This document shows positions 15,600 to 59,031 of a stretch of DNA of 64,000 nt, one piece after another. The notes under the pieces were generated by a model. The model did not search any database and was not told the origin of the DNA. It was given only the letters and a program-made list of their open reading frames with translations. The position numbers and the translations under genes are program-made. The stretch is taken from assembly GCF_000143415.4 (NCBI RefSeq), contig NW_003314333.1, positions 372,001 to 436,000 on the forward strand. The letters are read 5' to 3'. The DNA comes from Selaginella moellendorffii. Its lineage: Eukaryota > Plantae > Lycopodiophyta. Positions within the stretch are counted from its first letter, which is position 1, and every line of letters begins with the position of its first letter.

Positions 15600-15632
15600 G
15601 AGCGCGGACCATAATTGCGCTTACGAGCTAAA

Positions 15633-15660
15633 GAGTTGAGCTCACGAGTTGAGCTCAATT
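15633..15660 (+). repeat. Left subterminal inverted repeat
   Basis: GAGTTGAGCTCACGAGTTGAGCTCAATT. Confidence 0.85.
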
Positions 15661-16448
15661 TTCAATTGTAATTTAGTACAAACATTATAAACTTTAAAAT
15701 TTTAAAGTTATGGCGAAACTAATAATTTCATAACTCTCTATATATTATATAGATAAAAATTTTCTAAAGGATACCTCTTGTTCTAATAATTTAAATATTT
15801 ACTACATGCAATGATAGGGATGTTTGTTAGAACATAAAATAAAATATTTGTAAAAAGAGTATTCTTGTCACTTCTTTAAATTTGTATTTTGTGCTTTCTG
15901 GCTAGTAAATGTTAGGTTTGTCAGAATTTTAAAATTATTAAATTGGAATTAAGATTCTATATAAGGATATATAACCATTTGAAAGGAACAACTGTGATGG
16001 TACATATGCTCTCACAATATATTGTAACATCATACACCCGAAAGACTATCATGAAATATTTTTTGAGATGGTAAAGACAAAAATGGTGACTCACAAATAC
16101 TATGGGCAGTATTGCAAAAAGAACCTCGCAAGTATATGAAATGAAAAGTGAAATAATAAAATATTTTTATTAACTATATAATGTATAATTAGTTTATATT
16201 ATTGATAGAGAATAAACATCGATAGCGCTGGAAAATCTAATTAGCTCCAAAAGTTTTCTGCAACTCGGAAATAGTAAGGCTTGCTTGGTATATATGAATA
16301 TCCACTTTAGGATCCTAGTGCAAGATGTTGATAAAGATGTAGTATATATGCTTGCAAGGAGCATATGCCTTCCCATGTTCCTCGTGCTTCGTAAAGTTTG
16401 GACATGTGCAAGAAGGAAAGTCTTGAATGGCAATTGTGTACTCTCCAC

Positions 16449-19400
16449 CTACTTTGTTTTGACTATGTACTCCTTTGCGAGCGCAGTGATGTACTTCGTG
16501 AAGAGAATCTCATACTTAAGTGTTTGAGCCAAGTTTATTTTACCTTGCTTCTGCTTGGAGACGGTATCAATAAATTTAACTGCCTTACCTTTTCTCGTTG
16601 GCCTCCTATGCATCTTTGTAGGAACAGTTCTGGTTTTATCACTCATGTCTTCAACTCTCCTTTCAAGATTGAAACCAAATTTCTTAAGGTTTTCAATCTC
16701 ATCTGAGGTGAACGCAACCCCATTAGCAACTAGCCATTCTTTAGGTACTGCATCAGGTTTAGTCACTATAGTGTCTTCAAGCCGCTTTGTATGGTTGACA
16801 TCAAAGTTGCAGCAATATAACCAACACCATCTTGAAAATCCTGCTTGCTTTCGTTCCCCATGGAAACATGGGGCTGGAACAGAAGCAGACTTGTCACCAT
16901 GGATCCAAGCCCAACACTTGCCCCTTGGAAGCATCCCCACACACCTTACATTTGATTTTGCTGGCACTCGATGGATTGCCCATTGCTTTGGCTCCACGCT
17001 ATAATAAGCAATTTCAACCTGCTGTGATACACTTTCTTCATTAGCCACTTGAGGTGGCTCGGTTCTGGGGCGATGTCTTGGAGCAGAATGATACTCAACA
17101 TCAGGCCTGTGAGAGCTTTTTGCTCCAAGATCCATGCTAACATCTTCACCAGCAAAGGAAATCAACACTTTGAGCGGACAGTCTTCATATCACTAATAGA
17201 AGCCCGAGGAGTGTAGTCCATAGATGTGCCATGGACCACTTCCTCCACTGCAGTTGCCATTGTTCGTGCTGGTGGAGTCACTTTCTTCTTCATCCGATCA
17301 TGTAACATCTCAACCGAAGGTCCTATTCCCATGTATCTTCCTTCCTCAAATGCCAAGGCTTTTGAAGACTGCTCTACAGTGCGTATCAAATCTGATAGAC
17401 ATGCTTCATATAGACTCATATTCCCTTTCCCTGCCTTAGAGGAATGCCAGCTCCAATGTTTACTCTCTGAGAGATTCACAGTTGGGGTGTATGCAAGATC
17501 CTCAAGTGGTTGATCCTTATAAAAAGATGATATTAAAAAGCAATAAAAAGAGAGGGAAAGAAGAAAAACCAACCTGAAAAGAGTGATGTCCCTATTGGAA
17601 CATTTTAACTTCCCACCACCCCAACCACGACTCAAGTTGTGGTAAACAACTTACATTAGTATGGCCATCTTCACGCCACCACATTCAGTTCTCGTTTGCT
17701 TTTGCCTCATGCTCTTCTTTAGAAGGTGCAGCCTGCCATTGTTTGCACAACTCCTTAAATGTTAATTGGAAATCTGGCTTGATAAGGTGGCAGTGTTGGT
17801 TTAGGCTCTGAGCCCAATGGAACTCACAAGTTCTCTCACGACCTTCTAGGGGTTGACTATTCCCAAAGACTTCCCAGACACCATTCCAATTAGCCCCAGC
17901 CCCATCTGCCATGAAACCGTGAAAGTTGGCAGGCTTACCAGTCCACTTCAATACAATGTCGGAAAGGGACTTCCAAAATATTTCCTGAGCCATCTGGTCT
18001 TGTACTTTAAACTCTGCCGTTGCAATTGTCAAGTTACAATGTAGCTTGTGAAAAGCGCAATGTTTAAAACCATTTTAAGATAATGAAAAAAAAAACTACC
18101 TCAGATCATACACATGAGCTCCCATGGTTGTCTAACCCACCACCCGCTCTATATGGTCAAAATGTACCCATGCATTAACAAGGTCACTCGACCCAGACAT
18201 ATCCATTTGGGAAATAAGATCCACACCAGAGGCAGAGCCTATGGTAGACATTTTGAAAACAAAGGGGCACTCTTACTCACTAACGACTTGATCTGGAAAA
18301 AAACTCCCATGGATAAACTCATAGGGATAAGTCTGTTTTAGTTCAAGGATTGAGTTGATATTTTATTGGAGTTTCCCCTCTCGAGATTCACACATCCAAG
18401 ACTTTATCCTAAATAAAACAAAATGTAAAAGAGATATTATTGAAAAGTATGTAATAATATTTTCATACCTCCTAAGGCTAGTTGTAGGTTGCACATGTCG
18501 TAGTAACTCCCGCAAGCTAGCCTCATCCAGTTGAGTATTCTTGTAGTCCAGATCAAGTAAAGTGTTTGCAATAAAATCCTTGAGCACTATTTTTTGAACA
18601 TGCTTTGGAGTTGTAAATGAGTTTCTCACAGTCTCTATCTACACTGCATCTTTGAAATGGTTGACTGAACTCTTTTGTATCCCTTCCTGCATTGGATGTG
18701 TGTGCGTGCTAATATGTACTGCAGCTCTACTAGCCTCTCCATCCCGTGGAAGAAAATAGTACATCTTGGCCCCGCAGATGGCATGACACAATGGAGCATT
18801 CTTGCAAAACCAACACTTGAATCCAACACCAATGGTGTCACAGAGGGGAGGATTGGTTGCAGATCCTTCAAAAAATATGGAGTTTTTACCACACTCTTGA
18901 TTGCATGCTTTATTCACACAATCCAAATACCCACCACAATGAACCATGGACATTGTGTCTTTGAAATGCTAGAAATGTGTGGTCTTGATCTTGCACCAGT
19001 TGTGGACGTCCTGCTTCGTCTCCATCCCTTTTCGTTTTGAGTTGACAAAAGGTGGTAGTTCAAAGAAGATATTGCCATTGTATATAGATGGGAGCTCGCT
19101 AACAGGCCTATGTAGAAAAGAACGAACATTGATAGAGAGGCGAGAAAACTAGAAAGTGTTGCAAACAGCTTGGAATATTAGTGAAGTTGGAGTTTGGAAA
19201 TTCTTGGCTTGCACTGGACTAACATCTCCGCTAGAACTAGAAGAGGAAGAAATGATGACGACTGACTCTTGCTTCACATTCACTTTATCAGGATCGCAGC
19301 CTTGCACTTTGATTGGAGATCCAAAAACTTGAATCTCTTTCGACTTGGAATGTTGCAAATCCCAATGTTGTCCACCTTCACCTACACCCGAAAGAAGAAA

Positions 19401-19562
19401 CTCCGATCGTTCAACTACACCAATGTTATTGCGAATCACAACTTCCAATGAAATAGAACCAAGAGAAAGATCGAAACGTCGGCAAGCAAAACTTTCTGAA
19501 ATAAGACTTTGGGAGAAAGAAAGCAGTGGGTGATCTTGGTAATGCAAAAGGAAGCCCTCCAT
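16449..19562 (-). pseudogene. Multi-exon Mutator-type transposase with WRKY/GCM1-like zinc finger
   Basis: CGGYLDCVNKAC...CWFC...C...HTHP; WVHFDH..VVG*TTMGAHVYD; FHGFMADGAGANW...RTCEFHWAQSL (MULE D...CxxH); short AT-rich introns, stops and frameshifts. Confidence 0.75.
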
Positions 19563-20409
19563 TTTGTTGCCTTTAGGTTTTGGAACTCTGAACTTTTATA
19601 ACGAAATGTCACCTCACATGTGCTATGCCATTATGTGAAAAGAAAGGGCGATTTTATTCTAGGATCTAACATCTAATAATGTTGTTATAATAAATTCTAT
19701 ATGAAGTATAAAGGACTATGTTGTACAATATTAAAAGTCTATATACATTGAATTCAAAAACATGCTCAAATTTATTATATGCACTAACTTTTGGTAGAAC
19801 GGAAAGAAATATCACCTCAAGTATGTGCTATAATATGAAAGATAGGAATGATTTTATTCTAGGATCTATCATCAACCAACTGTTGCCAAACAAATTAAAT
19901 ATTGTACATATTTTCAGTACTTCATTAAAGCTAGAAATCATCACATTCTTCTGAACTCATTTAAATATATTCCATTTTTGTACTACCATCTATCACCTAT
20001 AGTAAATTATCTATATACATTGCTTTGGAAATAACACCTTACAATTTAATAATCTTATATTTTCTGACAATTTTGTACTGTGATCAATTCAACACATGTG
20101 TCTGTGACATTATTTCACATTATGACATAGTCATATTAGAGCACACCTCCATTATTAAATTACAACTCAAAAGGACTTTGTCACGTGATTAAATCTAGGA
20201 CGGAATAGAAATTGTATAGTGCTAGCAAATATTTGCAGAATGCAATGAAGATTTACTGGATCCACGATGAACGGCTGTGATGAAAGTTAGGTTAGGGTTA
20301 GGTCCGCTGCCGGCATTAGGGTTTTACAGAAAGAGATTGGGAGTGACTGCGAGATCCATTGGCATCGAATAGAATGCCACCAAGAGTAAGTTTTTTCTCC
20401 TCCACTCCC

Positions 20410-21330
20410 ATGCCACGCCTAGCGCCCCCGCGCCCACGCCACGCCCAGCGCCGCCATGGCCAGCACTACCGCCCCCACACCACGCCACGCCCAGTGCCAC
20501 CGTAGCCCAGGGCCACCCAGCACCACGCCACGCCCAGCACAGCGCTGCCTAGGTCCGCTGTTGCCATGACGCTGCTGCCATGTCGCCGCTACCATACCAC
20601 TGCTGCCCAGCATTGCCCACGCCAGTGCTGCGTTGCCTAGGGCCACCACTGCCCAGCACCGCCGCTGCCATGCTGTGCCCAGCACTGCTGCCACTGCTGC
20701 CAAGTGCCCGAGCCGGGCATTTGGCCGGGCACTCTTCTTGGGCCGGCCATGGCAGGCCAGTACGCCGGTAAACCAGCGCTAGAGCCAACTGCCCGCACCA
20801 AGTCTGGGCAGGCCAGCAAAGGCGCTTGGGGGCGGGCCGGTGCCCACGCCAAGTGCTTGTGCCAAATGCCCATGCCGGGCATTTGGTGCAAGCCAGCCAA
20901 GTTCAAGTGCCCAAGCTAGGCACTCCGTGTGGGCTGGCAAAGCGTTTGGGGGCCCTGTGCCAAGTGCCTGTGCCGGGCATTTGGCGCGAGCCGGCCAAGG
21001 GGCTTGGGGGTGAACCAGCGCCCACGCCAAGTGACAAGGCCAAGCGCCCACATTAGGCATTTGGTGCAAGCCGGCCTTGGCACTTGGAGGCGGGCCGGTT
21101 CACTGGCAAACTAGGCTGCCCCCAAGTGCCAAGGCCGGTGCGTGCCAAGTGCCCGGCCCGGGCATTTGGCCCGAGCTGGCCTTGGCACTTGGAGGTGGAC
21201 CGGCGCCCGCACCAAGCGCCAAGGCCAAGCGCCAAGGCAAGGTTCTTGGGCGCTTGGCCTTGGCAAGGGCCGGCCAAGGTGCTTGGGGGCGGGCTGGTTC
21301 GCTGGTGAATCGGCGCTTGCACCGAGCCCA
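20410..21330. repeat. GC-rich degenerate array of CCAAGYGCC / GGCRYTTGG inverted motifs
   Basis: Many CCAAGTGCC, CCAAGCGCC, GGCATTTGG, GGCACTTGG and GGCGCTTGG copies between the divergent genes. Confidence 0.8.
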
Positions 21331-21389
21331 CACCCTGTTCCCCTCTTCTTATGCATTTATAATTTATAATGAGTTTTTTTTATTTTCAG

Positions 21390-24300
21390 AAACGGAAGCA
21401 ACTACAAAAGGAGAGGGATGTTAGATCAAAGAGAAGACATGAAGAAGATGAGATCCAGGACAACAATCAAGTTGACCTTTAAATAGAGATTTCCACAGTG
21501 ACAACTCTACCGTCTTTGCAACCAAATAGCTCCAGTCCATATGCACCCCCACCACCGCCATCGATGCCACCACCACCATTACCACCACCACCACCTTCAC
21601 CACCATTGCCACCTCTACCTTCATCACCACCTTTACCACCACCATCATCACCACCATTACCACCACCACCGCCACCATCATCATCACCACCAATGCAACC
21701 ATTGTCATCACTACCATTGCTGCCACAACCACAAATGCCACTACTCTTAACATATTCACAAAATATGGCAAAAACGGAGTAGTGCCCAAGTGTGCCTGAC
21801 GGGGGTGTTGGGCCCGAGTCAAGGGCTAGATCTGATAATGGTGCTATTGGAGGTGTAGCTGAAGCTGAAAGAGAAGTGGAGCTACCTGAACACATTATCG
21901 ACAAGTGCTTCTAGTTTTGAGAACTAAAGAGAAGGCCATTCACACGACTCTGGAGTCTCTCAAGTGGGAAGGCCCGGGAGACATGATCCGAAAAATCCCA
22001 CTATGTCGATTCACTCAGACAAGCGTCGTTCGGTCTGCTTCACTGCACTTCGTCAACATGGACATCTATAGTCTGTACAAATAGAACGGCCTTGGGACAA
22101 ATATAGGTATGTTCCTTGTTTCGGTCTTCAAGCCAGGAACGACAAATACCCTCTCAGTGTCACCAGAAATTGAGAGGGATTGGGATGACATTTGGAAAAT
22201 GAAGTCCCACGAATTTGACATCAAGCTTATGAGCCATTCTGAGACTCAACAATTTGTGGGGAAAATGTTTTATGACAGCTGTGTGGAGTAAGGTATGTTC
22301 TTCCAAGTATACTTCTTATCATAGAATGTTTGTGTTGCCTTCAGCCATTGGTGAAGGTTAAGCAAGATGCATATGCACAGTTGCATCAAGCTGAAAATGA
22401 TCAAGAACTCTCGGAGCATTTAGCTGCAATTGACAAGAAAATCAACAACACAAAGAAGACAAAGGTAAAGAAATTACTTAGTGTGGCTGACTCTCAACGC
22501 CCAAAGGAGTGGTTTGATATTATAACAGAGATTTCTTGTCATGAAAGTAAGTATTGTTTGTGTTTACATGAAGGTTACTCACAAAAGTTATTTCTTAGTG
22601 GGCAAGACTCTAGATGAGATTATTTACAACATCTCAAAGTCAAAGCTTATATATGAGGAATAGATACACATTTTGAACGACCTCAATAGCAAACTGAGGG
22701 AAGGAGAAAAAGGTTTGGACAGTATGATGGAGACTGTGATGAGGAGGACCGTCTACATTTCACAAACTGTATATGAAGGGGAGATGTTTCTAGCCCCTTT
22801 CATAGGGGATGATCCTGAGCAACTTCCATTTAAGGACTTCGTCACCATTGAGCTTACAAAACTTGCAGAGGACTAGCTGCCAAAGAAGGCCACAAGCACG
22901 ACTCCATTTGATAAACAACTTGGCCAACCTTCATGTGTCAAGCGGCTTTCAGGTAACATACAATTTCTCAACTATACTCAATTGTTTATATTCTATTATA
23001 GGTATCTCCAATATAGAGGTGTTCCTCTCGAAACACCAGTATGCACATGACTCCTGAGGCATGGTGTGAGAGATGGAGGCATGTACCTGACAACAATGAA
23101 GTTTCCAGCAGCAATAAAGCGCACTTGTCCTTGGGAATTAGAGATGCCAGATTATGAACCAACCCACCAAGAGGTTGCAAGAGGCAACAATGATGACAAA
23201 GATGATGGCCATGAGAATGTTGACCTTGTTGGTGCCAATGGTGAGCAAAGTGAAGATGCCAGTGAGAACAAGATTCTTCAAGACGAAGTCGAGCAAGAGA
23301 ACCAAAACGTCTAAGAAGTTCTACCTCGACGAAAGCGTGCAAATCCACATCTGGAGGAATTAATCAACAGTGATGATGATCGTCTAAGACGTCCCCGTAA
23401 CCGAGGAACTTCTCGAGGTATATTTCTTTTAATTCTCTCCTTTTCTTAGTTCCTTAAAATGGTTGCAACAAAAACTGTCGGGAGTAACTTCATTCCAGCT
23501 CGTCTTGATGCCCGAGAAGAGGACCTGGAGGAACTTACATCTACCACACGCCACATGACGGTATGTAAATTTTTCTTAATATCTTTGTCTTCTCCCCTTA
23601 GATTCGCCCTGTTTCTCTAGTGGCATTCCGTGGTGAAGTTGGGATCTTTATTGACTCCTACAGTTCATTAATGGCATCTTTTGAGGACGATGCTGAGAAT
23701 ATGGCTATCTGGCAAAAGTGGGAGCGCTTTTGTTAGAAGATCCATAGGCAACCGCTCAAAAGCACAAACTTCATGCTCTTTGACATGCCAAATGGTCCTC
23801 CAGACGCTAATGGTGATGTCCCAAGCTAGAACAACCTGACTAAAGACCACTTGAAGGATGCATTCCTTTTGGCAGTAATTCTCTTTCACACAACTGGTCA
23901 AGTTGCCTTCATTCTCCCAAATGACCCCATTGGATGTCCTACCTTATGAGGTATGCAACTCGAGTCAACTTCAAGAGGTTCTCTTCCGGGTGTATCATGG
24001 ATAGTGTTGGGGTCAAGACCAAAGAAGCTCTATTTCGTTAAAGTGGGATTTATTCAGTAAAATGGGACTAGGTACAAATTTTCAAGTATTTGAAAATGAC
24101 GTGAAATTATATGTTTTTTGTCCAGGGGCTAGACATATCTGGGGCATGGTGACTAGCACGGTGACTTTGTGTCCAAACTGAGTCCATCTAGTTGTATAAT
24201 AAATCTCATTGTCAAGGTGAACAAGCCAAATCTGAAGCTAAAGAAGAGCAATGGCATGCGCGCACACACTATTTGTTTGTTCATTGAGCGTGTGGTGAGC

Positions 24301-24430
24301 TTTCCAAGATGAACGTCATTCCTATTAGCCAGACATATAACTTAATGGTGAGAACATTTAGATATTATTCAATGTTATCTTTTTCTAACGAATCTAATTG
24401 TGAAGGTGTAGCAAGAGGCATTGCTAGTCT
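21390..24430 (+). pseudogene. Multi-exon ParB-like-family cargo gene (decayed, Pro-rich N-terminus)
   Basis: LKWEGPGDMIRKIPLCRF...GMFLVS...DWDDIWKMKSHEFD...FVGKMFY aligns by eye with the ParB-motif protein at 57660-58000; the DGNHR motif is lost; many ~50-nt GT-AG introns; boundaries approximate. Confidence 0.6.
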
Positions 24431-24743
24431 GGAGAAGTCATTTAACTCATTTGACCCTTAGTGTATTTTCATGAAACTAAATAACATTCATATTATTAAG
24501 GAATTTCTCTAGTACCTTTTTTTTACGACATAGAGGCTTGCATTTCTTTCAAAGGTGATTTAGTAAAAGGCCTGAGGGCACATGCCATTTTATTTCTCAG
24601 ACCGGTATTAAGATATACTAGTGCAAAGGGAAAAAGGTATTTGGTGATCAAGTAAATGGCATGAGGGCACACGCCATTATAAGCCTAAGCGCTAGTGGAC
24701 ACCTCCTTTTTGGTGTCACGCCTCACGCCATCATGCCATGCCA

Positions 24744-27700
24744 TCACGCCTCCTCTGATTCAGATTCGGATTGTTCACCTTGAAATAAAATACATTAGAA
24801 ACTTAGTAAAGGAATATTAATGAATCTCACCTTGAACCCGAGTTATGAATGCTCTTGCTGCATCTCTTGCATGGTCTGGCAAGGTGATAGTGGCACTCTA
24901 CTTCCGCATCCAACCATGCACAACATTATCCACCGATATGCTCATGCTGGGATCCCTTGGATTCAGCACCCATCTCTTTTCTAGGCAATCCTTCGTATAT
25001 CCGGAACGTGGCTTGAACCACTCCACAGTTACATTGAAGGAGTTAGTTTCCGCGTCCTCCTCTACATCAGTGATGCAGCGCCCCACCCATATCATTTGTT
25101 TTTTATTACTGGGTCTGACAAGCACGACCATTCCTTTGCAGACCTGTACTGGATTGAATGCTGAATCCGGCTTCTTGTTCCTCGGCCCACAATAGTGATC
25201 CTCAACATCGTTATCTGTCACTGCATTTCCAGAGGACATTGTTCCGCTACTATCTGGTGCTCTGGGTTCTAGCCAAAAGGACTCTTCCAATTCTTCATAT
25301 ACAACCGGCCCATTTTGGATAGCAGATATAATCTTCTCCCAGTATTCGAGCAAAGGCTTGCACCTCTTAAAATAGGATTCTCCACCAAACACCAACCCCC
25401 TCTTCCAGAAGGCAATATGCTGTCTAATCCCGGCCACTATACTTTCCTGGTCTTTGAGTCCATCCGGGTGCATCGGCCGTGGGGAACCCTGAGGAATCAT
25501 AGGTTCCCCAGTTATGGGATCTCTCTTGAAGAGTTCAATGCCGTCCACTGGCAGCCACACTGTGTCCCATTCTCTCATCTTGTACCTCATCACTGGAGCA
25601 CCGTCACGCATGCTGAAATGAAACTGAAGAGGCTTGGAGTGGCCCATCAGCATTTCGGATCCATCCCTCATATAGCCTCTTACAAACCCCTTAAAGTCTG
25701 GAACCTCTGTCACAAGTGCAGCTTCAACAGTGCCTTTGATGCAATTTTGGAATTCATCGTAGAGTTGTGGGAGGGTGAGGACATTGGATCGCCGGAGGGA
25801 CTCTGCCAGGTGACTGAACATGGCATCGACGTCTTCATGAGTGTGCCCAACCATGAGAAAGCCAAGTGTAACCGTTTCAAATATGCCTTTGGCAACAAGC
25901 ATCGCCAAGTACGCGAAGACGTACATGTTTTTGTTCTCACTGCCAGCATTGTCTGTTTTGAGCAGAAGATGGGGTGGAAGGCCACATCGGCCGCAAGAAC
26001 TTCCTTGAGATTCTGCTTCGTTTGGATGAGGCTGTGCATTCACCGGGCAACCAGCCTCGTCGGAATGGCATGAGGCCTCACGTGATAACCCTACAATCTG
26101 ACGGCCAACATATTCACTGGGATGGCATGGGGCCCCACACGATACTGCAAGCCTTTGCTCCTCCTCCAGCTGAACCCTGTATGGGGTTCGATCAATAAGG
26201 GCCTTATGCAAGGGTTGGCCGTTCAGCTCAGTTTGCGCACTTTGCAGAGACCTTAAGTGCTTTGCTAGGGATGCAATCATCATGTTTGCACCCCCGCCAC
26301 CCCATAGAGGTACAAAGAAGTTCCCATAGTTTTGGGCACCATGCCCATGAGCAATTATGCCAAACAGAGACACAGGCAGCTGCATGGATGAAGAGATAGC
26401 CTTGGGGGCAGGATTGAGTTGAGGTAAGCACGTCTTTTTCTGGTCCATTTTGTCGTGGATGATGCAGAGGTAAGAGTCAGGTCTCTCCATGGAGAGAATC
26501 CTGTTATGATAATATGCAGTCCTGCAGCTTCTCTGCTCGATGTTGTGGTCGAGCCGCCTTCTAACCAACGTCTCTCGCTCTTGAGCGCTGCAAGAATTCT
26601 TCGACAAAGCCATTTTGATAGCAGTGCACTCGTCACACTTTGAAAAGCTGGAGTACTTTCCTATACTCACATCCCTGAACCTGTTGCTCCACAATCTACT
26701 AAATCTAGATTGGCTCAGCTTCCTATAGCCATTACTCTGGAGTTCCCGATTCACATCTTGCAATATGGCCCCCTTGGTATACATGGAAGGGAGAACTTGT
26801 TGGGTGTCTCGTGTTCCATCTTCCAAGAGGCGGGTTTTATGTGGTTGCTGCTCGCTACATGTCTCAACAAACCTCTTGAAGATTGCCTCTCCATATACAA
26901 CATGACCCCTGGTTTTGTGCGTACCGTCGTACCCATGGACTGCCTGTTGAACCCTTTGTTCCTCGAACTCAGTTTTGATTCTGTAGAATGTGCTTCGAGG
27001 GACTCCATAAATGATTCTCCATGCCTTCATGCAGACCAAACACCTCTGGAAGACCATGCCCCCCACCTGATGTTCTGAAGCATCAACAGATGACCGTAAT
27101 GCCTCATACACAAAATTGCGAGCTGCCTTCCAGGACAATGTCTTGTATCTTGCTCTCTCCTCTTCAATAGCATCCCAATCAGCATGTTGACAGCACCTCC
27201 TCTTGCAACAAGCAACTGTCGAGACCATTCGAACCTCCATCGCCATTTTTTGCCTTTTCGGTTTGTTGCTCAGATCCCTTTGGCTGCGCTTTAGGAAGGT
27301 GTACTTTCTTTTCCCATGAAGAGATGTTCTGTCATCAGTTGTAGTGGTGTTTGATTGTGAATCCTTCACATTCTCAAACACTAAATGTTTCAATTTCCAC
27401 TGCACAATGCTTCCAATAGTCAGACTGTTTTCTTCTGTGTCAACAACCTCTAAAATCGCAACTCCAATATCATCCCAGCCCAATTCTTGATTAGCAACCG
27501 CATCTCTTGGATCGACAACTGTGGCTAAGCCCTCAGCTACCACCTCCCCCTCGGGGTTGTTTAGAAACACCTTTGCCTGAATCCATGTAGCACGGTTCTT
27601 AAGATCCACGGAGGGAACATGCGTCGCACTTGCACTGTCCCCAACATCTGCTTTCTTCTGCAGATTTTTCAAGGCAACAACAACATTTACCCCGACGACC

Positions 27701-27885
27701 ATCTCTCCTCGTTCAATAGCGACCACATTCCCATCGAAGACAGTCTCTACTGATACAGCAGCATTGCCTTCCCCAAGCCTTTGATAGTGTATAACAAAGT
27801 TCCAATCCATAGACACAAGGGTCCCTTTTGCAACTCTCTTCCCACCATTCAAAATGTAAACCTTTTCCCCAACCCTGAAGGCCAT
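24744..27885 (-). CDS. Sola-like DDE transposase (995-aa ORF, probably extended through a premature stop and a 52-nt intron at 24779-24830)
   Basis: IIHDKMDQKKT, KTDNAGSENKN, FLMVGHTHEDVDAMFS; CCKRRC and KCDEC Cys clusters; duplicated N-terminal VAKG/VAEG...LG...V.V module. Confidence 0.75.
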
Positions 27886-29163
27886 TCTGAAAGTGCAGAA
27901 AAGAAGTTAAGACCATACAAAAAATGATTAGAGAATGGCCTAAATCATAACATACCAAATAGCATGAGGCCACATGCCATTATTCAAACATGCTATTGAC
28001 ACCCACGTGAAATTTCGCATTCACAAAATTGGCATGAGCCCTCATGCCATCTTGATATACACACAGCTGCAGGCAAGTAAAAACATACATGACAATACGC
28101 TAGCCATGAAATTGCAAGGGCCCAAGATGGCATGTGGCCTCATGCCATTTCTAAATGTGGTCCTAAGCCATTCCATGGTGAACATACCAGGAAGCACAAG
28201 TGCCGAATATCAAGAGGAAGCGGTAGCCACACCAAAGACAGTGCCGCTCGCAACACCGCAACTACTCGTAGCGCCGCTCGCAACACCGCAACTGCTCGTA
28301 GCGCCGCTCGCACAAACTGCCACTCGCATAAACTGCCGCTCGCAATGGTGCTCGCAATGCCGCAACCGCTTGTAGACGCATAAACCACAGCTCACAACGC
28401 CGCTTACACAAGCAGCGCTCACTGCGCTCAGTGGAACCAAGAACACGGCACACAAAAATGATAGACCTAGGAATGAGTTCGAGAATTCAAAAATAACACA
28501 CGCTTGAACGTCACATCAAATCCTCTGACAAACCAGATCTTATGATTCCTCTGAAAAATTTCAAACTGAGTAGCTTCTAGACTTTGCTGTCGGACGTTGA
28601 ACTTTGTCACATCATGTCCTTGCCTCGATCCAGCTGTGCCATGTCAGTGATTCGAACTTTGCCATGCCATGTTAGCGATCCGCGCCAAGATTATTCGCCG
28701 TGTAAAGGAATAATTATGCTGTGTGTGTACGTCCATTTATGGCAATATAAGGCCACACGCCATTCAAAGAATAATGCTAGTTGAGCATTTTTTGGTGCAT
28801 TTTTGGGTTCAAAATTGCATGAGCCCACATGCTACAAAGTTTACCTGTACCAAAAATAGAAACAGCTTTATTTACTTGGGAATTTAAGTGGCTGAGGCAT
28901 TTTTAAACTTACAAATACATGCCCTACTTACATTCCTTTGGTTGCTTAAAATTCAAAAATATTATAAACCTTTCTTTTTGCATTTTCAATGTTTTCAATT
29001 ATGGTTTTTGATTTTCGCAGGACCAACTTAGTAATCTACCGTCATGTTTATAGCTAGCTTTCGTTTGTCCCCTTTGCTAGCCTGAGATACATCTGCTCGG
29101 CATCTGCCTCTTACAGCATTTGCCCAGAAAGGGCATCTTTCTTCACGCAGCATTTGCCACATG

Positions 29164-29189
29164 TTTAGGGTTTAGGGTTTAGGGTTTAG
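29164..29189 (+). repeat. Interstitial plant telomeric repeat / telo-box (TTTAGGG)x3.7
   Basis: TTTAGGGTTTAGGGTTTAGGGTTTAG. Confidence 0.85.
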
Positions 29190-30444
29190 CAATTCAGTAG
29201 CTTGATAAACATGCAAATACAGAACTTGATGCAAAATCCTTTGATATGTCACAATGCCCCTAGGACCATAAACACATTTCAATAGAGAGGGTCCTTTCAT
29301 TTCATAACTCCTTACGTAGACCTTGGTGAAACCAGAGTTAGTGAAGTTGGTTTCTTGTGATCCCGCATCTGATTGTGATGTCCCTTTGCAGTGTCGATGG
29401 AAAGGTCAATGCACACCAAACTGTAGAATCTTGGAGCAAAATAACGGTCGGATCTATGGCAAATGCCCCTGAAACATTGTAAGGCTCGTGTGGTCTCATG
29501 TGGTGTCCGATCGAGATGCTTCTTTGTAGGGTCATCAAGAAGGACATTGTATACCATTCTGTAAAATCTAGTTGCGATCTAACGGTTGGATCTCCAAAAA
29601 ACTCAAAACAATCTCGCGTGTGTCAAAATATTCTAGGAACATACTCTTATGTGCCCCTGAAAATGGCATGCGGCCCCACGCCATTCAAGAGATAACGCCA
29701 GATGACGCCGAGCATTTTTTGGTGCATTTTTTTGGATCAAAATTGCATGAGCCCACACGCTTGAATGTCACATCAAATCCTCTGACAATTTATTTAGCTG
29801 AACATTTGGCATTTTTGGAAATACAAAATGCTTTGGAATATCCAATCATGCATGGTATAAATATAGCGAGGGTATTGAATGATATCCCAATCATGATCTT
29901 TCTTTTGGATTTCGCGTGCATGCAGTCCGAGGAATGATGACGTTGCGGATTTCTTTTGGATTTCACGTGCATGCATGCGCGTGGCGATCCAGAAATTAAT
30001 GGTGGCGCCCACGTCCGAGGAATGATGACGTGGCAGGATTACCAACCGTCGTGACATTTCACGCGTGTGAGGTTAGGTTTTGCATTTTGCTTCGTACTCG
30101 CGCTCGCATCGCGCTCTCACTCACGATCACGCTCACATTCGCGCTCATCTACCTTCTCTACAGGTTTCTTGTGTGCATCGGCGTCCACTCGCGCTTGCAT
30201 CACACTCGCGCTCGCATCGTGCTCGTGTGCATCAGCATCCACTTCAAAACACACCCAGTTTGTAACTTCGCCGCCAACTCCGCCGCCCACTCCGCCACCC
30301 ACACGCAGCCCACTTGGTGTCTCGGGAGATTTCAGCGCCACTCTCCAACTGTAAGTGGCAGAGTAGCCTTGCTGCTATGATCCGCTGCACACACAGTGCA
30401 CATTCGCCAGCGAGTCCGGTTGTCACGCCTCCATTCGGCTTCAA

Positions 30445-36064: not shown

Positions 36065-36603
36065 GATGGCATGTATTTATTTAAAAATGTAACTTATTAT
36101 GGCATGGGGTTCCATGCCATTGTATTAATATTAAAAGACAATTCTTTGAGAGGATTTGCATTATACTAGAAGTGTTACAGCATGTTATTGGAAGTCTACG
36201 AAGTTGTTTTATTAATAAGGGGAAAGTAAAGATTGAATGGGGACTTGGGCTCCACCTAGACTCGGAACAACTGAGCCAATATTAAAAGGATGGAAAGAAA
36301 TTGGACGACGATGACAAGGAGAAGAGAGAGGTGAAGAAGTGGCAGGGGGAGGAGAAGTGATTGAGTAGACATTTCCTTGTTTAAAATAAAATGGCATATG
36401 CCTCAATGCAGTTGAATTTTGTTATATTTATATACTATATAAAGGTTTGGAAACCTTATTTTACAAGTGGGATAATGACAATTCCCACTTTAACGAAATA
36501 GAGCTTAAAGGCGTCCTAGGCATGCCAGAGAAGGTAAGAAATCATCTTCTATTTTGGTTGTCTCTAAAGTTTTATTATTCAGGTTATGATGTGGACCTAA
36601 TAT

Positions 36604-37912: not shown

Positions 37913-38171
37913 TCCTACACTCTAAATAAACTGAAATTTCAATGCTGAAAGCATTCCTTGTCAGTATTTATACTAACAAAAGATCTAGGGGTTCTTGAAA
38001 GTTTAAATTGTCAGTCTCAAAAATAGGACTTTAGAATTATAACAGTGTCAGAACCACTTGTATATATAATAATATCTTTATACATGATAAAATACTATCA
38101 TTCTCGAAAATATAAGATTCTACAACTTTACTCATAAAGAATTATACTTTTGAAAAAACTATGCATGACTT

Positions 38172-38726
38172 TCACATTACATTAAAAGGTGGCCTAAATA
38201 TCCCATATTCAGCACTTACTGATGCAGTGTTCACTAATGGAATATTATTCTCCACCATGAAATCATAATAGCTGTGTGTTTTTAATTCTTTCTTGATTTT
38301 CTTATACATCCACGCATGCACACCTTCCAAACCCGCTCTTGGGCATTTGCGACAATGCTCAATAAAATTTACCAAACCCATGCAACCATCTATTTTGTTT
38401 ATATAAAAGTTGCATATAGGACACTGAAGATAATATGTATCTACATTAAGCTCCCCTGCCATATCTGGAGCGAGATTTTGAAGAAAATATTGACATCGCT
38501 CTTAGAGAATTGGAGGCAATCCAACTCTTTTAACAACATTATAAGGAAGAATTTCTTGTTCAGTTGCACTCGAGGTCGCAAATGGAACAGCCTCACAATA
38601 GCCCTTAAAATGAAAAAGAGGATTGTTACGTAGAGGTGAAGGTGGATTATTGGTTGAGATTGGAGATGGAGGTGGAGACTCATATGAAAGGCCTCTAGAA
38701 CCAAAAGTAAACTTTTTCCTAACCAT
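38172..38726 (-). pseudogene. Small Cys/His (putative zinc finger) protein, tandem paralog 2
   Basis: YESPPPSP...; CPICNFYINKIDGCMGLVNFIEHCRKCPRAGLEGVH...SAEYGIFRP; frameshifted. Confidence 0.6.
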
Positions 38727-39769
38727 TGCAACACATAAGAAGAATTAAACTTCCCAGCAATAAGAATTCTTTAATTAATATACTATATTTCAATCTCGGG
38801 AATGATGTTTTATTATGACATGATAATATATTGAATCATTATTGTCAGTCTCAGTAATTTCAACCTACTATGAGAGACAAGTGGTTATAGGGTTTCAGAA
38901 GCTAAAAACTAGCATATAATTAATATGAAGCTTTATTTTATATAGCCGGTCTACCATATATAATAATGGCGAATACACATAGGCACGCGAGTATGCCTTT
39001 TTGCAAGATTACCTTTCAATCCCAAAATCATATATAGATTTAACTCTTTGATTTATCCACATCATATATCTTTGCAAAGACAAAACATATCAAAAGGAAT
39101 AAGATATATATAAAAAACTTACTTTTTTTTATAATAATTTAGTGGATTACAAAAGCCATTGAAAGGTTTATAAAGTGGATTTATTAGTGCTTTCCGCTGT
39201 GTTGTCCATTTCTTCTTTTCTCTTGCTTTGGATTGTTGTTTCGGAAGTAACAAGAGCATTTTTATCAATAGTGACACTGGTCTCCACATTTTCGGATGGG
39301 TAATAAGGACTAGGCATGTAATATGGAAATTGTGGTATTGAAATAAAATTAACATTCTCCCATTTCTATATGCTAAAACTACTTATAGATTTTTTGTCTT
39401 CCTTCCTTCCCATCTCTGTAAACCCTAAAGAATGAACAAGTGAATCAATGTTTTAAATTATTTATATATTTCTGGTCAATTGTTGAAATGTACAATAGAA
39501 ATTTTAGGTTCATTCGAACTTCAATATTCCCATTTTATTTAGGACCAATAAAGCTTAAAATTTTCTATGGGTTCAAACGAACTTCTAATTCTAGAAATAG
39601 TATTTTATTGTATAAATTGCATTAGAAAGATTCAAAAAATAGAAATTTCTCTGAACCATTGATACTTAAATTCATAAATTCAAGTTCACCAAAGAATAAG
39701 ATTTTTTTGACTTAATATTTCCTTATAAAACTTATGGTTGACTATGTTGACTAGCATTGACTTGAGCTG

Positions 39770-39797
39770 AATTGAGCTCAACTCGTGAACTCAACTC
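39770..39797 (-). repeat. Right subterminal inverted repeat
   Basis: AATTGAGCTCAACTCGTGAACTCAACTC is the reverse complement of the left repeat with one mismatch. Confidence 0.85.
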
Positions 39798-39814
39798 AAC
39801 TTTGGACCATCCCC

Positions 39815-46221: not shown

Positions 46222-47687
46222 TTTAGATTTTGCAAAGAGGTGCTACCTTTCCCGATAGTAACAAGCCTGCTCAATTGCGACGTCGGTCTGCTTCCCCCTG
46301 CAATATTTTCCTGTCAATCTCGTCCAAAACGCCACTTACTCATCGTCAGCAGTTAGTGATGAAGAGCGAGCTGAGCTTTTCGTTGCTTCAGCTTCACCCT
46401 GAGCATAAACTCATTTAAGATAGAACAAAGAAAAAAGCAAGTACTTTGTCTTCGGCATGCCAATGCTGGGAAAAGGGATCTCACAAGGTCTGCATCAGAG
46501 CTGGTAGCCAGACTACCAAGGCTCATGGCTGCACGCTTTGAGCTTAGAGGACATGGTTTGCTGATTGGGAGCGCTATTCATGCACGTCCGCTGCTAGAAA
46601 ACGGAACAACGGCTGGCCATGGACCCTGCAACGACATAATCTAAAGCCCAACTGCTGAGGAAGCTCCCTATTTTAAGCAAAAACACGTCTCCTCTCAAAA
46701 TAAGGGAAAAACCGAGCAGACAAAATGGACCTAGCAGTGTCACAGAGTTGAACAGGACATCCTTGATCACCTGCAAGCCATCACTTTGATTTTGAGACAA
46801 AGTGTATATCTATCTTAGTTACTATAGAACAATATAGGTATTTGAATCTGAAACGTGGCCTTCTGCATATATACTCCCATCATGGACATGCACAAAACAA
46901 CTTCCTGGGAAGACATTCACTCAGGATTAATCTAAATGAAGGCTAGAGTAGAGAGTTTTGCATCAGCCTATGCTAAGCAATCACATCGTATGAGAATTTT
47001 ATTGCATTGGAAATTGTTTGCTAAGCATTTAATTAAGTTTATTGGAACCATTAAATCTATAGAAGTTGTATTCATCAATTAGGAATATAAGGAACATCTT
47101 GTTCCTTTATTGATTTATTTAGTTCCTGCCTAAGTGGGAGCTAAGTCTCTGGAGGCAAGAGATTGGCTGATGTTTTTGAGCTAAGATCAAATTAATGAAA
47201 GTCAATGAAAGTCAATATAATCCACCAAATACAAAAGTTGATGTTCAAATGATTGGTTCGGGACAAACCAAAAATTTTAATCAAAACTTAAAACATATTT
47301 TCAGTCCAAGAAAAAACTAAATAATATAAGTCCAATAAGAAAATAAATATTATGAGTCAAAGAAAAAGCTCTATATTACCACTAAAAAATTTAACTAAAA
47401 AAAAACTAAACTTAGTCTTCTTTGGCATCCACATCCATAAAAGGAATTTATATAATATTATGCTCTCTAAATATGGGCTCTTGTTGTATATAAGCTTGTG
47501 CCATTGCTTTTGCATAACATGGCAAATCATAACCCATGTCATCAATCCACTTAATATACACAACCATGATGGAATTACTATAATGAGAAATTTATATTTT
47601 ATTATCACTTGTTATGAAATGTCCCAAGAACACCTTCAAATGTACTCTCCTTATCCAATGCCAAAACTGCACAGCTAGTCTCTTTAG

Positions 47688-53382: not shown

Positions 53383-53385
53383 AGT

Positions 53386-55095: not shown

Positions 55096-58000
55096 TTTAG
55101 CTGCTAGCACCATCAAACCAAAACCTGTTATAGCATCAAGCACAATTCTTTTAGGAGGACAAAATAACTCTAGAAGGATTTGCATGGCCTTTGATAAACG
55201 GTGTTGATAGTCAGAGAATTTTATATGATGGTCCTCGTCGATGACATTTGGGATGATATCTATTGAGCTATCATATCTTAGCAATGCCAAAACCTCCACA
55301 CTCATCAGCTCGTGTAATATTGTGACAGCAAGAGTAGCGGCAGAGAGAATGGTAATTCCATGCTAAAACCTATAATGTAAAAAGGCAATCAATTTAAGAT
55401 ATGAAAAATAAAGAAATGCAAACTTTTTGGATTCGGCCATCTGCTCCTTTTGTTTCAACTAGGATGTTTGAGAGTAGGTAGCCTAATGCAAACTCAACCA
55501 ATCTAGAGTCATCATTCTCCACCATCATTGTAAGAAGACCTCCCCAAAATAAAGAATGGGGAAGAAGACTAGCATAATGCCCTCATATTGCAACACCTTG
55601 GATGCCACATCCACCGCTTAAGAAATATGGTCTAGTCAAAGGATGTTCCAAGATGGAGTGTCATCTTGTAAAGGTGGTAACCCATCAAGCAAGTTGAAGA
55701 ATGCGAGGTCGATGCTGAAGGTATTGTTCATTCCCAATCCTCGCATCCATCTATGGAACATAAAAGACTCTTGGCTTATGTCATTGAAAAGCTGAAAGTA
55801 GTCCCCAATAACTATTTCCATGTTGCCAACACTTCCTGTAAGAGAAAGAGAACGAATCTGAATAGTGTTCAAAAGTGGGAAATATTAAAGTTAATACATG
55901 TTTTTTTATCATACCTGTTTAAGTAAAGCCGATGAAGATAACTCTTGGAGGTCATCCTCTGATGGAAACAATGCATTTATACGTCAGTGTATAGAGTGTT
56001 GGGTGGTTTCTCTGACATCTATAACCAAATTACAATAAACAAAGTCATTGGAAATCAAGTTCTTACTTTCTTGGAGTCCTCATTATGGAGCTGCCTTTAT
56101 ACATTTCAAGTAGTCAAGGCTGGACGAGCAACAGTAATAGGATCTAGGGAATGAGTAACTGCTGTAGGATGAGATGGGGTAGGAAAGTTTTCAGCCGGGT
56201 TCTCCATTTGTTCCTCTTTGGTCTGCTCAATATGAATTTTGTCCTTATCTTGAGGCATCTCCACTCCCTCTAAAAGTGCTTTTACAATAAAGTAGAAATA
56301 TAAGTTATTGCAAGGAAGTTTTACTCATCAAACCTAGATAACACTCAAGGTAGAGATCAAGCTCAAAAGGTGATGATGGCATTTGCCTCCATAACTCCAA
56401 GTACCATGGATAAAGTTCTTACTCCAGTATAGTGGGACAATGGAACTTTGGTTCATACATGCCAAGTTTCTTCCCACTAGTTAAGAGCATGAGAAAAACA
56501 TTTGTTGTGTACACTAGAGCACCTGGACAATGATTTAAATACCTACAAAAAAGCTATGACAAAATAACAAGTCAATTTCTTGCAATATACCTATATGCCA
56601 TACGGCACAAGAAAAATGGTTGGCCCAATTGGTTCTTGAAATCCATGGAGCTTGAGCTGCCATCAAAAAGCTATCCATCCCCAAGCTCTTGAAGAGAAGC
56701 TTAGATATATTCTAGAAGTGTTATGCCGGTGCAGACACTAGTAAAGAACTTTGTATCCCATGCTTGAAGTAGCTCCTCAGCAACCGCAATACTCTGATAG
56801 ATATGGAGCTTTTCCTTCATAACATTCTCAAGTTTGCTCTCCAACCTTTTATCATTGTTATGATGCCAAATGTTGAGGAGCTCCAAGCAAAAGGTTTGTT
56901 TGTTGAAGGAAAGCTTGCTTTTTGTGATATTATAAATCAATTGTTCAAGTGCTTTACCATTTCCTGCAAGGACAAGGATTTCAAAGTGGAATGAGAAAGA
57001 TAAAAGGGACTAATTTATTGCCACAAGAGCATATCTTTGCAATGCAATCTAGCTAATCTTTATTGTGTCGGATGTCTGCAATCACAAGTAACTTCTTCAC
57101 CTTTGATTTCTTTGAGTTCAAAATGCACTGCTCAATTTATTGTAATTTGAGGTTCTTTTGCATCTCATCCATCACTTGCGTAATCTTCAAATATGAGTTT
57201 TGCTCCACCTTGACAATTGGCTAAAGGGAAAACTTGTGAATAGAAAACACAAGTTCATGCAAGAAAAGGATACCTTTGCCCAAACTGCAATTAAAAAATC
57301 CATAGGCACCTGATACCAAGTAAGCAACTCTTGGCCTTTACGTGCTACAATTTTGCTTGAATTACTTCCATAACCTCACGACTATATAGCATTTGGATTT
57401 CTTGGAGAGAAAGCATGCTAATATATCAAAGGTGCTCGATATCATGGACCAAGGTATGTGCTTGGAAAGCAAATTGATTAAGCCTGTAATATAGTTGGTG
57501 AGAACAAAGGTTACTAGTAAGGGATTTTTATATATTGATCTTGTAACATGCCAAGTTGAGCCTCATAGCTTGGTTTTGATCCTCTAGCTCCACAAGTGTC
57601 ACTAGAACACTTGTCATTGTCCTAGAACTTCTCTTGGATACATCTCTAAAACACTAGCCATTAGTGGTTTCCATCAATAATGAAGAACATCTAGCCTACA
57701 AAGGCTTGTATCTCCTTGTAGCATGCCATCAAAGTATCAAACTCTTGAGATTTCCTTTGCCATATCTGATCCTAAGTCTGCTTGATCTTACGAGTAACCA
57801 TGTCTATGCAATTTGTTTTGGGGAATGATGACGACACAATAAATGATCTAGCAGTGTTCTCGAATCCAACCTCTGTGAAAGAGGTATAAATAGCCATGTT
57901 AAGGTTATAGGCTGAGCACACCCAATGACTCTGCTTAAGACAGAAAAGTGGAATCTGAAGATGTTGGGATCCTTTCCAAGCCATTTCACTTAACACCCTG

Positions 58001-58569
58001 CTGATAGTTTGTTTTTGAGCCTAGACAATAATCTCGTATACTTGCTCATTCAAGATTACGTTGGCCTCTAGCATAGTTGCCATCTCATTTTTGTGACCTT
58101 CAAGAGTAGCAGCATGTCCGCCATTTCCACCACCAAGATCTGCCCCACCACCTATAGCACCAAGTGCCTCATTCTACCACCAAGTTCTGCCCCACCACCT
58201 ATGGCATTAGATGCCTCATTTCCACCACCATTGCTAGCTTCTTCTGTGCTATAGATAGATTTTGCATTTTTGCACTCTCTAGAACTATCTGGCTTCTGCA
58301 TGCTAACACCTAGATCAGGATCAACCATTTTTTGGATCTGGACACCACTGCTCCCACTATAGTCTTCCTCTAAAGTAGCACCTTGAACTTGTGAGGTGTC
58401 CCTAGTGAATCTAGCATAAGGATTTAGTCGTTTTCTTGGAGAATGAGTCCATTGAAGTTGACCGGCATGCTTCTTCTGTTGTGGCACGACTTATATGTCT
58501 ATATAAAAATGACAAAAGAAACTTGAGTAAACATTAAAAAAAAATTTAAAGAAAAATAGGAGCAATTTC

Positions 58570-59031
58570 TTTAGCGTTGGGAAGATCGGTTCATTGCCGA
58601 ACCAATCTTCTAGCACCAAGAGAACAAAAGAAAAAAAAAAAATAACTCCCTTAGTGCTGGGAAGATCAATTTGTTGCTAAACCAATCTTCCAGTACCAAG
58701 GGAACAAAGAAAAAATGAAAAGAAGTAGCTCCCCTACCACTGGGAAGATTAGTTCGGTGGCAAATCAATCTTCCAATGCCAAGAAAATTAAAGAAAAAAA
58801 GAAAAGGAACAGCTCCCTTAGTGCTGAGAAGATTAGTTCGGTAGCAAACCAATCTTTTAGTGCTGAGGTAACAAAAAAAAAAAGAAGAAAAGAAGCAATT
58901 CCCTTGGCACTGGGAAGATTGGTTTATTGCCTAATTGATCTTCTCAGTGCCAAGGGAACAAAAAAAAGAAAAAAAAAAAAAAGCAATTCTCTTAGCACTG
59001 GGAAGATTGGTTTGCCGCCAAACCAATTTTT
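58570..59031. repeat. Array of about 6 imperfect ~52-bp hairpins separated by poly-A (~84-bp period)
   Basis: CTTAGYRCTGGGAAGATTGGTT...AACCAATCTTCCAGYRCCAAG units near 58570, 58650, 58732, 58816, 58902, 58990. Confidence 0.88.

What the first reader, a model, noticed from the sequence alone, without database searches (positions are those of the whole stretch)
15600..59031. Recurrent transposon-borne ParB-like (+ DNA methyltransferase-like) genes, each with its own palindrome array: candidate self-recognition/epigenetic module
Seen: three ParB-like genes (21390-24430 +, 30445-36064 +, 47605-58490 -). Two sit head-to-head with transposases of different superfamilies (MULE-type and Sola-like). 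Each is associated with a different palindrome array: CCAAGYGCC/GGCRYTTGG (20410-21330), ATGGCRTG-N6-CAYGCCAT (24570-36410) and CTGGGAAGATTGGTT/AACCAATCTTCCAG (58570-59031). N4/N6-MTase-like segments lie in or after genes 2 and 3. Established: bacterial ParB loads on palindromic parS sites; ParB-MTase fusions occur in prokaryotic mobile elements; VANDAL MULEs encode VANC anti-silencing proteins whose target motifs accumulate in their own element. Inference: these TEs may share a portable 'ParB-MTase + cognate palindrome' module that marks or protects the element.
Basis: partly seen in the sequence, partly recalled or inferred. Interest (0 to 1): 0.88.

Follow-up and report, generated by a model that had tools for sequence, protein, structure and literature searches.

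The report
Nested transposons with ParB–methylase helper genes
In a plant genome, likely a spikemoss, two kinds of jumping gene, one sitting inside the other, each carry a broken bacterial-type helper gene and many copies of their own mirror-image DNA word that the helper protein likely grips to keep its element active; this extends to land plants a design already proposed for algae.

Summary
A 12.5-kb Sola-like element (B, 24025-36506, 4-bp target duplication) sits inside gene 1 of a MULE-like element (A, 15600-39814); contigs of public runs show both empty sites. The methylase piece 'after gene 2' is therefore the tail of gene 1. Genes 1 and 3 are homologues; gene 2 is a distant second clade with relatives in liverworts. 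All three end in a beta-class N4/N6-methylase-like domain whose catalytic motif is degenerate. A ParB/Srx-like front domain is moderately supported for gene 2, seen by motif only in gene 3, and partly deleted in gene 1. All three copies carry stops. The palindromes are far above chance and element-specific; B's 22-bp palindrome (21 sites) avoids conserved coding DNA and sits in short introns. The same architecture and hypothesis are in print for Ectocarpus Sola1-1_Ec32 and red-algal Plavaka elements. What this adds: land plants, two clades on two transposon types, a predicted pseudo-methylase, and related arrays beside related genes. No binding or activity is shown.

The parts
15600..39814 (.). 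Element A, MULE-like DNA transposon (11.7 kb without the nested element B); 8-bp target duplication GGTTTGTG at 15592-15599 and 39815-39822; degenerate terminal inverted repeats
   Evidence: Inverted arms 15633-15660/39770-39797; termini; a loose end at 39815 in run X3 matches the DNA left of A, i.e. an empty site
16452..19595 (-). Spliced, decayed transposase of A; MULE-type by motifs judged by eye (recalled), no Pfam hit
20410..21330 (.). Array 1 between the divergent genes of A; five CCAARYGCC-N7-GGCATTTGG dyads plus single half-sites
21390..24024 (+). Gene 1, 5' part: proline-rich start, ParB-like region with the DGxH segment missing, helical region, first half of the methylase-like domain; several stops
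   Evidence: pieces 26-41% identical to gene 3
24025..36506 (.). Element B, Sola-like DNA transposon inserted in gene 1; 27-bp terminal inverted repeats; 4-bp target duplication AAAG
   Evidence: I14; joint 24020->36507 skipping 12486 bases in 3 of 4 runs laid (two samples)
24898..27885 (-). Transposase of B, open frame of about 995 aa (Pfam DUF7869, E 4.5e-41); weak Transposase_23 hit at the N-terminus (E 0.086)
24251..36120 (.). 21 dispersed copies (<=3 mismatches) of the 22-bp palindrome ATGGCRTGWGSSCWCAYGCCAT: near the ends, between the genes, in short introns, in a variable loop of the transposase and in a low-complexity exon
30445..33243 (+). Gene 2 core: ParB/Srx-like domain (about 31340-31860, motif SGQHS), helical region, degenerate beta-class methylase-like domain (about 32510-33240); three in-frame stops (31740, 32886, 33120); 54-nt intron 31863-31916 with one palindrome
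33244..36064 (+). Predicted 3' exons of gene 2: low-complexity exons, then an exon with a NIF/HAD phosphatase-like domain (Pfam E 3.6e-6, over the cut-off); fusion to gene 2 is inferred from splice sites only
36511..36990 (+). Gene 1, 3' tail: methylase motif X-I region
   Evidence: Pfam N6_N4_Mtase E 6.7e-4, under the cut-off; PHROG DNA methyltransferase E 4e-5; 52% identical to the gene 3 tail over 59 aa
55096..58490 (-). Gene 3, homologue of gene 1 with the motif IIDGNH; many stops and frameshifts
47605..47687 (-). Last codons of gene 3, beyond a Gypsy retrotransposon (47688-55095, 5-bp target duplication) that interrupts it
58540..59385 (.). Array 3 upstream of gene 3: six 84-bp units of a long dyad plus A-tract, and one inverted unit at 59293-59385
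59394..61408 (+). Second, 5'-truncated copy of element B (53 of 2015 bases differ from the first, 46 of them transitions), with its right terminal repeat

Best explanation
These are nested DNA transposons that each carry, opposite their transposase where it is present, a decayed accessory gene predicted to encode a ParB/Srx-like plus methylase-fold protein, which likely binds its own element's palindrome as a dimer and likely keeps that element transcribed or unsilenced without methylating it. Shown: the nesting, target duplications, empty sites, gene layout and element-specific palindromes. Predicted: the two domains and the loss of methylase catalysis. Inferred: binding, dimer, anti-silencing role (by analogy with VANC and TnpA). 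The gene moves between transposon types, and the word it reads drifts with it.
For: Empty sites for A and B. Palindromes confined to their own element. In A and beside gene 3 the array abuts the 5' end of the accessory gene; in A it lies about 5 kb from the nearer terminus, and A's terminal repeats carry a different motif. Homologous genes 1 and 3 have arrays that share CCTTGGCACT (3 and 3 copies, 1 more in the other 62 kb), while the distant gene 2 has an unrelated word. B's sites: 0 of 21 in about 6.2 of 12.5 kb of conserved coding DNA (boundaries drawn after seeing the sites), the two transposase sites lying in a loop that is variable in two relatives; fixed spacing (13 dyads at spacer 6, at most 1 at any other). 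This matches VANC motifs in introns and intergenic DNA (PMC5735166, passages). Methylase fold: profile hits M.RsrI at E 0.003; the model's top VIA match is CcrM (Z 7.6, rmsd 4.0, 156 aligned), with MboIIA, RsrI, PvuII and rotifer N4CMT in the top 13. ParB: hhalign 80-88% to motif-collected phage ParB/DGxHR sets, reversed control <=0.24%; with the motif masked E 0.0017 against 0.8; 8 of 10 Atlas structure rows for relative P0017 are ParB, KorB or DndB clusters. Catalytic motif IV reads DMPN (gene 1), NLLD (gene 3), DLPD (P0007) and is unrecognisable in the gene 2 clade. Read depth is level across B's transposase and gene 2, a hint that they travel together.
Against: No binding, expression or methylation data. 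No Pfam or NCBIfam ParB hit. My ParB-domain model is poor (pLDDT 52) and its fold searches list no ParB. The Atlas rows are all under the tool's bar for naming a family, and the VIA Z is under 8. The canonical-ParB set alone gives only 0.5%, and the second set was chosen on the motif. All three genes are pseudogenes here, so the motif loss in genes 1 and 3 could partly be decay. The gene 2 profile does not detect genes 1 or 3 (hhalign 2.75%), so 'one module' rests on shared architecture. B's transposase has a weak Transposase_23 (TnpA-type) hit and could be the binder. Avoidance of coding DNA is expected under any model. Only two clades and three arrays were seen.
Confidence: 0.45

Rival explanations
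1. The palindromes are binding sites of the element's own transposase (TnpA-like N-terminal repeats in B), used for self-activation or end pairing; the ParB-methylase gene is separate cargo.
For: Weak Transposase_23 hits at the N-terminus of B's transposase and of one of three relatives (E 0.086, 0.19). A 2026 preprint reports that transposases activate cognate copies (10.64898/2026.08.24.746577, abstract only). Level depth across B cannot separate the two genes.
Against: B's sites are mostly internal and absent from the terminal repeats; arrays 1 and 3 abut the accessory gene; the arrays beside two homologous accessory genes share a 10-mer. Three transposase relatives at 31-34% identity show no B motif and no clear dispersed palindrome, but these contigs are almost all coding DNA.
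Confidence: 0.2
2. Intact copies encode an active 4mC/6mA methylase that ParB-like binding targets to the palindromes, marking the element.
For: Beta-class methylase fold and motif order; a glycine-rich motif I is partly kept in genes 1 and 3 (DCIVGSGS, DAITGFG) and in Riccia P0016 (DFFSGS).
Against: The aromatic residue of motif IV is missing in three copies of the gene 1/3 clade and the motif is lost across the gene 2 relatives aligned.
Confidence: 0.15
3. The protein works as in bacterial partition: it loads at the palindromes, spreads and compacts or loops the 12-kb element to help the ends meet during transposition.
For: ParB-like front domain; parS-like, nearly gapless 22-bp palindrome; large elements.
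Against: The CTP-binding arginine patch GERRxR (recalled) reads GQHS or GNH here; the nearest sets are DUF6551/GmrSD-type, not partition ParB.
Confidence: 0.12
4. The motifs have no protein partner: they are splice signals or hairpin-prone words spread by local duplication and tolerated in non-coding DNA.
For: In B's short introns the invariant A of the right half-site lies about 16 nt before the predicted 3' splice site, like a branch point. Array 3 is a plain tandem repeat.
Against: B's sites are single 22-mers without shared flanks, also outside introns, symmetric in both halves with fixed spacing, 18 against 0.05 expected.
Confidence: 0.08

Closest known systems
Accessory gene of Sola1-1_Ec32, Ectocarpus (PMC12477816, passages read)
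   Same: Large Sola-type element; accessory gene on the strand opposite the transposase; ParB-like domain plus N4/N6 methylase domain in one protein; same self-binding hypothesis.
   Different: Land plant; methylase catalytic motif degenerate; extra NIF/HAD exon; the passages read mention no palindromes; a second clade sits on a MULE-like element. Sequence homology to the Ectocarpus protein was not tested.
Plavaka accessory genes PAG2 and PAG3 of red algae (Petroll et al., bioRxiv 10.1101/2025.02.11.637652, passages read; supplements closed)
   Same: ParB-like gene with adjacent inverted-repeat arrays; PF01555 methylase on the same element; cassette moves between transposon superfamilies.
   Different: There ParB is fused to a 2OG oxygenase and the methylase to SET in a separate gene; here ParB-like and methylase-like domains are in one gene, and B's sites are dispersed through introns.
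VANC/VANDAL anti-silencing system of Arabidopsis (PMC5735166, passages read)
   Same: Element-encoded protein with family-specific motifs that gather in introns and intergenic DNA of its own element.
   Different: VANC motifs are short, non-palindromic and in tandem repeats; no ParB or methylase domain is described in the passages read; VANC activity is shown, this one is not.
Beta-class DNA amino-methylases (CcrM, M.RsrI, M.PvuII, rotifer N4CMT, Marchantia MpDN4MT1)
   Same: Fold and motif order.
   Different: Motif IV degenerate; MpDN4MT1 has TSPPY (10.1101/2021.02.12.428880, passages) and is a host gene without added domains (PMC8885841, passage).

Membership tests
ParB/Srx superfamily | Remote profile similarity across the N-terminal domain | tested here: met
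   Gene 2 clade: hhalign 80-88%, motif-masked E 0.0017, reversed controls null. Genes 1/3: only the 12-14 motif columns align.
ParB/Srx superfamily | ParB/Srx fold in a structure search | tested here: inconclusive
   Own model pLDDT 52, no ParB listed; Atlas model of relative P0017 gives 8 of 10 ParB/KorB/DndB rows, all under the naming bar.
Partition ParB (CTPase clamp) | Arginine patch GERRxR (recalled) | tested here: not met
   SGQHS in gene 2, DGNH in gene 3, segment absent in gene 1.
Partition ParB (CTPase clamp) | Sequence-specific binding to a palindromic site | not testable with these tools
   Needs EMSA or DAP-seq.
Beta-class N4C/N6A DNA methylase | Fold and order of motifs IV ... X-I | tested here: met
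   M.RsrI E 0.003; CcrM Z 7.6 top row; Pfam and PHROG hits for the gene 1 tail.
Beta-class N4C/N6A DNA methylase | Catalytic motif IV (D/N/S)PP(Y/F/W) | tested here: not met
   DMPN, NLLD, DLPD; absent in the gene 2 clade.
Beta-class N4C/N6A DNA methylase | Methyl-transfer activity | not testable with these tools
   No modification data.
Algal transposon ParB-methylase accessory class (Sola1-1_Ec32, PAG2/PAG3) | Accessory gene inside a DNA transposon, divergent from the transposase, with inverted repeats nearby | tested here: met
   Elements A and B; the ends of gene 3's element were not found.
Algal transposon ParB-methylase accessory class (Sola1-1_Ec32, PAG2/PAG3) | Sequence homology to the algal proteins | not tested
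   The algal sequences were not obtained; none of the named hits is algal.
Sola superfamily (element B) | 4-bp target duplication and terminal inverted repeats (PMC10741241, passage) | tested here: met
Sola superfamily (element B) | DDD triad and placement among Sola transposases | not tested
Mutator-like elements (element A) | 7-12-bp target duplication | tested here: met
   8 bp, with empty site.
Mutator-like elements (element A) | MULE transposase domain | tested here: inconclusive
   No Pfam hit on the decayed exons; D and CxxH-type motifs by eye.
VANC anti-silencing proteins | Sequence-specific loss of 5mC over the own family | not testable with these tools
   Needs transgenic methylomes.

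The most novel reading that the evidence does not exclude
Seed-free land plants carry a family of transposon-encoded, ParB-derived sequence-specific readers with a dead methylase module that hop between transposon superfamilies, co-evolve with a private palindrome written into the element's introns, and act as a prokaryote-derived anti-silencing system independent of VANC; one ParB-less derivative may have been kept by the Selaginella host.
Probability: 0.3. Interest if true: 0.8.

Novelty: new variant of a known kind. Interest (0 to 1): 0.5.

Why it matters
How DNA transposons escape host 5mC silencing is shown for very few systems (VANC, TnpA). The ParB-methylase accessory class is so far an untested proposal from algae. 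A young, much-repeated land-plant element with a sharply defined 22-bp candidate site, plus a second clade with two related but different arrays, gives concrete protein-site pairs to test, and relatives in liverworts make tests in Marchantia or Physcomitrium practical. If the methylase is dead, the published 'self-methylation' idea needs revising.

Tried and rejected
No genome held, so no genome-wide co-occurrence test. Word-seeded protein searches with gene 2 and with alignment A3 found nothing. Of the 10 hits, two (P0011, a repeat protein, and P0013, low complexity) were dropped as spurious before aligning. Pfam, NCBIfam and PDB-sequence searches gave no ParB hit; PHROG 15713 (unknown function) matched gene 2's front domain at E 0.03 only. 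Foldseek on both models gave no match at E<=0.001; VIA on the ParB model listed no ParB. No relatives of the ParB part in metagenome, viral or prokaryote contigs or in phage records; no paired B motif in viral contigs. No RNA holder listed; run X20 is only guessed to be RNA. Whether other copies of gene 2 have open frames at the three stops is open: the tables were cut and no second laying was obtained. Rejected: the methylase at 36601 as part of gene 2; three independent protein-array pairs; link to MpDN4MT1 (different motif IV). Not-in-print claim for land plants rests on ten searches of an open-access library; Iyer et al. 2011 (cited by both algal papers or the Ectocarpus one), the original Sola paper (not held), Repbase and the Bostrychia supplements were not seen and may already list plant members.
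Full report
Source. The window is a repeat-rich plant region: introns, Gypsy retrotransposons and a TTTAGGG-type repeat at 29163. The only relatives found for gene 3's front exon are three Selaginella moellendorffii hypothetical proteins at 67-80% identity, so the genome is likely a Selaginella. No whole genome is held.

Anatomy. Element A spans 15600-39814, with degenerate inverted ends and an 8-bp duplication. Element B spans 24025-36506, with 27-bp inverted ends and a 4-bp duplication. Contigs of four public runs (at most three samples) were laid on 20001-40000. Three of the four runs hold a joint 24020->36507, the site without B. One holds the DNA left of A joined to 39815, the site without A. 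Summed depth is level across B and roughly 20 to 40 times that over A; the tool warns this is no copy number, so I take it only as a hint that B is much more repeated and moves whole. A second, truncated B copy at 59394-61408 differs at 53 of 2015 bases. B's transposase frame is open over about 995 aa.

Genes. B interrupts gene 1, whose frame resumes at 36511; the methylase piece at 36601-36984 is therefore gene 1's tail. Gene 1 and gene 3 align in five pieces, from the front region (31% identity) to the tail (52%). Gene 3 has IIDGNH; gene 1 lacks that segment. Gene 3 is cut near its end by a Gypsy element at 47688-55095. Gene 2 reads for 859 codons with three in-frame stops and a 54-nt in-frame intron. 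A full HMMER search with it gave 10 hits (E 8e-10 to 7e-4); 8 were kept: Selaginella SELMODRAFT_409495, Calypogeia, Riccia (annotated as an N-4/N-6 methylase domain protein) and five from unnamed assemblies. Three of these end at the same W-x-V position as gene 2's exon, which suggests a conserved intron. The gene 2 profile does not detect genes 1 or 3, so there are two clades with one architecture.

Domains. The gene 2 family profile hits M.RsrI at E 0.003. In the predicted model (pLDDT 55), residues 395-637 match CcrM best (Z 7.6, rmsd 4.0, 156 aligned), with six more beta-class methylases in the top 13 rows, among unrelated Rossmann folds of similar Z. The Atlas places Riccia P0016 with N6_N4_Mtase clusters at 0.91. 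Motif IV is degenerate throughout, so I predict a pseudo-enzyme. For ParB there is no Pfam hit. I collected phage proteins by two recalled motifs (59 and 45 after removing near-duplicates; 19 of 25 scanned from the second set are DUF6551 or GmrSD_N, families I recall as ParB/Srx-fold). The gene 2 clade aligns to them at 80-88% probability, 0.5% to the canonical set alone, and at E 0.0017 with the motif masked. For relative P0017, 8 of 10 Atlas structure rows are ParB, KorB or DndB clusters, all under the naming bar; by features the nearest family is fungal DUF3723. My own model of this domain was too poor to search. ParB/Srx-like is thus moderately supported for gene 2, by motif only for gene 3, and the CTPase arginine patch is absent.

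Palindromes. All three are far above chance and confined to their own element. B's word is a nearly gapless 22-mer, ATGGCRTGWGSSCWCAYGCCAT, at 21 sites; the R/Y positions are CpG versus TpG/CpA, the signature of 5mC decay. Sites lie near the ends (5), between the genes and in 5' introns (8), in predicted short introns of gene 2 (4), in a low-complexity exon (2) and in a variable loop of the transposase (2); none lies in conserved coding DNA. Array 1 holds five CCAARYGCC-N7-GGCATTTGG dyads; array 3 holds seven longer dyads. Arrays 1 and 3 share CCTTGGCACT, three copies each and one elsewhere; 13 of 299 overlapping control windows hold any recurrent array-1 10-mer.

Mechanism. Most likely (0.45) the accessory protein binds its element's palindrome as a dimer and keeps the element active, as VANC does with motifs in introns and intergenic DNA (PMC5735166, passages), without methylating. 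Binding, dimer and role are inferred. The main rival (0.2) is that the transposase is the binder (weak Transposase_23 hit). An active methylase in intact copies (0.15), a partition-like looping role (0.12) and no partner (0.08) follow.

Known work. The Ectocarpus element Sola1-1_Ec32 carries a 1104-aa ParB-like plus N4/N6-methylase gene opposite its transposase, and the authors propose a class of proteins that bind and modify their own transposon (PMC12477816, passages). Red-algal Plavaka elements carry a ParB-like gene beside inverted-repeat arrays and a PF01555 gene, a cassette that moves between superfamilies (bioRxiv 10.1101/2025.02.11.637652, passages). Iyer et al. 2016 list ParB-linked methylases in algae and fungi (PMC4738411, passages). 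Earlier notes of this scan report similar layouts in other eukaryotes (unchecked leads). Ten searches found no land-plant report, with the gaps named above.

Verdict. A real, well-defined land-plant variant of a recently proposed class: two clades on two transposon types, element-wide sites, and a predicted dead methylase. It is not a new kind of system, and no function is shown. Interest 0.5.

Noticed in passing
window 44158-46242 (-): Intact 694-codon frame with a NACHT/STAND-like P-loop NTPase (Pfam E 2e-4, under the cut-off) and a C-terminal part that looks like a restriction-endonuclease fold; resembles Crinkler-type CR proteins (recalled). It lies 1.4 kb beyond gene 3's end and may be cargo of the same element.
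   Followed up: partly
window 37370-37620 and 38175-38501 (-): A third gene in element A: two diverged copies (78% identical DNA) of a small cysteine-rich domain (CPIC...HCxxC); no Pfam hit.
   Followed up: partly
P0009/P0019-P0021 (SELMODRAFT_409495, LOC9650508 and relatives): Selaginella proteins homologous to gene 2's helical and methylase-like parts but without the ParB-like front; four similar records on two contigs; possibly a host-kept derivative.
   Followed up: no
window 31863-31916, 33379-33415, 33506-33554, 33699-33745: Each predicted short intron is little more than one palindrome plus splice sites, with the invariant A at a branch-point-like distance from the 3' end; these introns may have arisen as carriers of the site.
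   Followed up: partly
window 35165-36064 and 60067-60966: NIF/HAD phosphatase-like exon with DLNGVL in place of the usual DxDxT (recalled); if fused to gene 2 it could act on RNA polymerase II. Between the two copies 6 synonymous and 15 non-synonymous changes, close to neutral.
   Followed up: partly
P0017 in the Atlas: Nearest family by features is fungal DUF3723 (0.93), which I recall as a gene of Starship and other fungal mobile elements; it may be another branch of the same ParB-like accessory class.
   Followed up: no
window 24212-24258 / 24737-24783: A 47-bp inverted repeat near B's left end encloses four palindromic sites.
   Followed up: no
window 40416-40630: Tandem repeat of 59 bp, 3.6 copies, 96% identical, unrelated to the three arrays.
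   Followed up: no
window 20410-20560: The left part of array 1 repeats CCACGCCACGCC, which contains the CACGCCA core of B's half-site.
   Followed up: no
L001-L003: Relatives of B's transposase (31-34% identity over most of its length) on short metagenome contigs, too short to show an accessory gene.
   Followed up: partly
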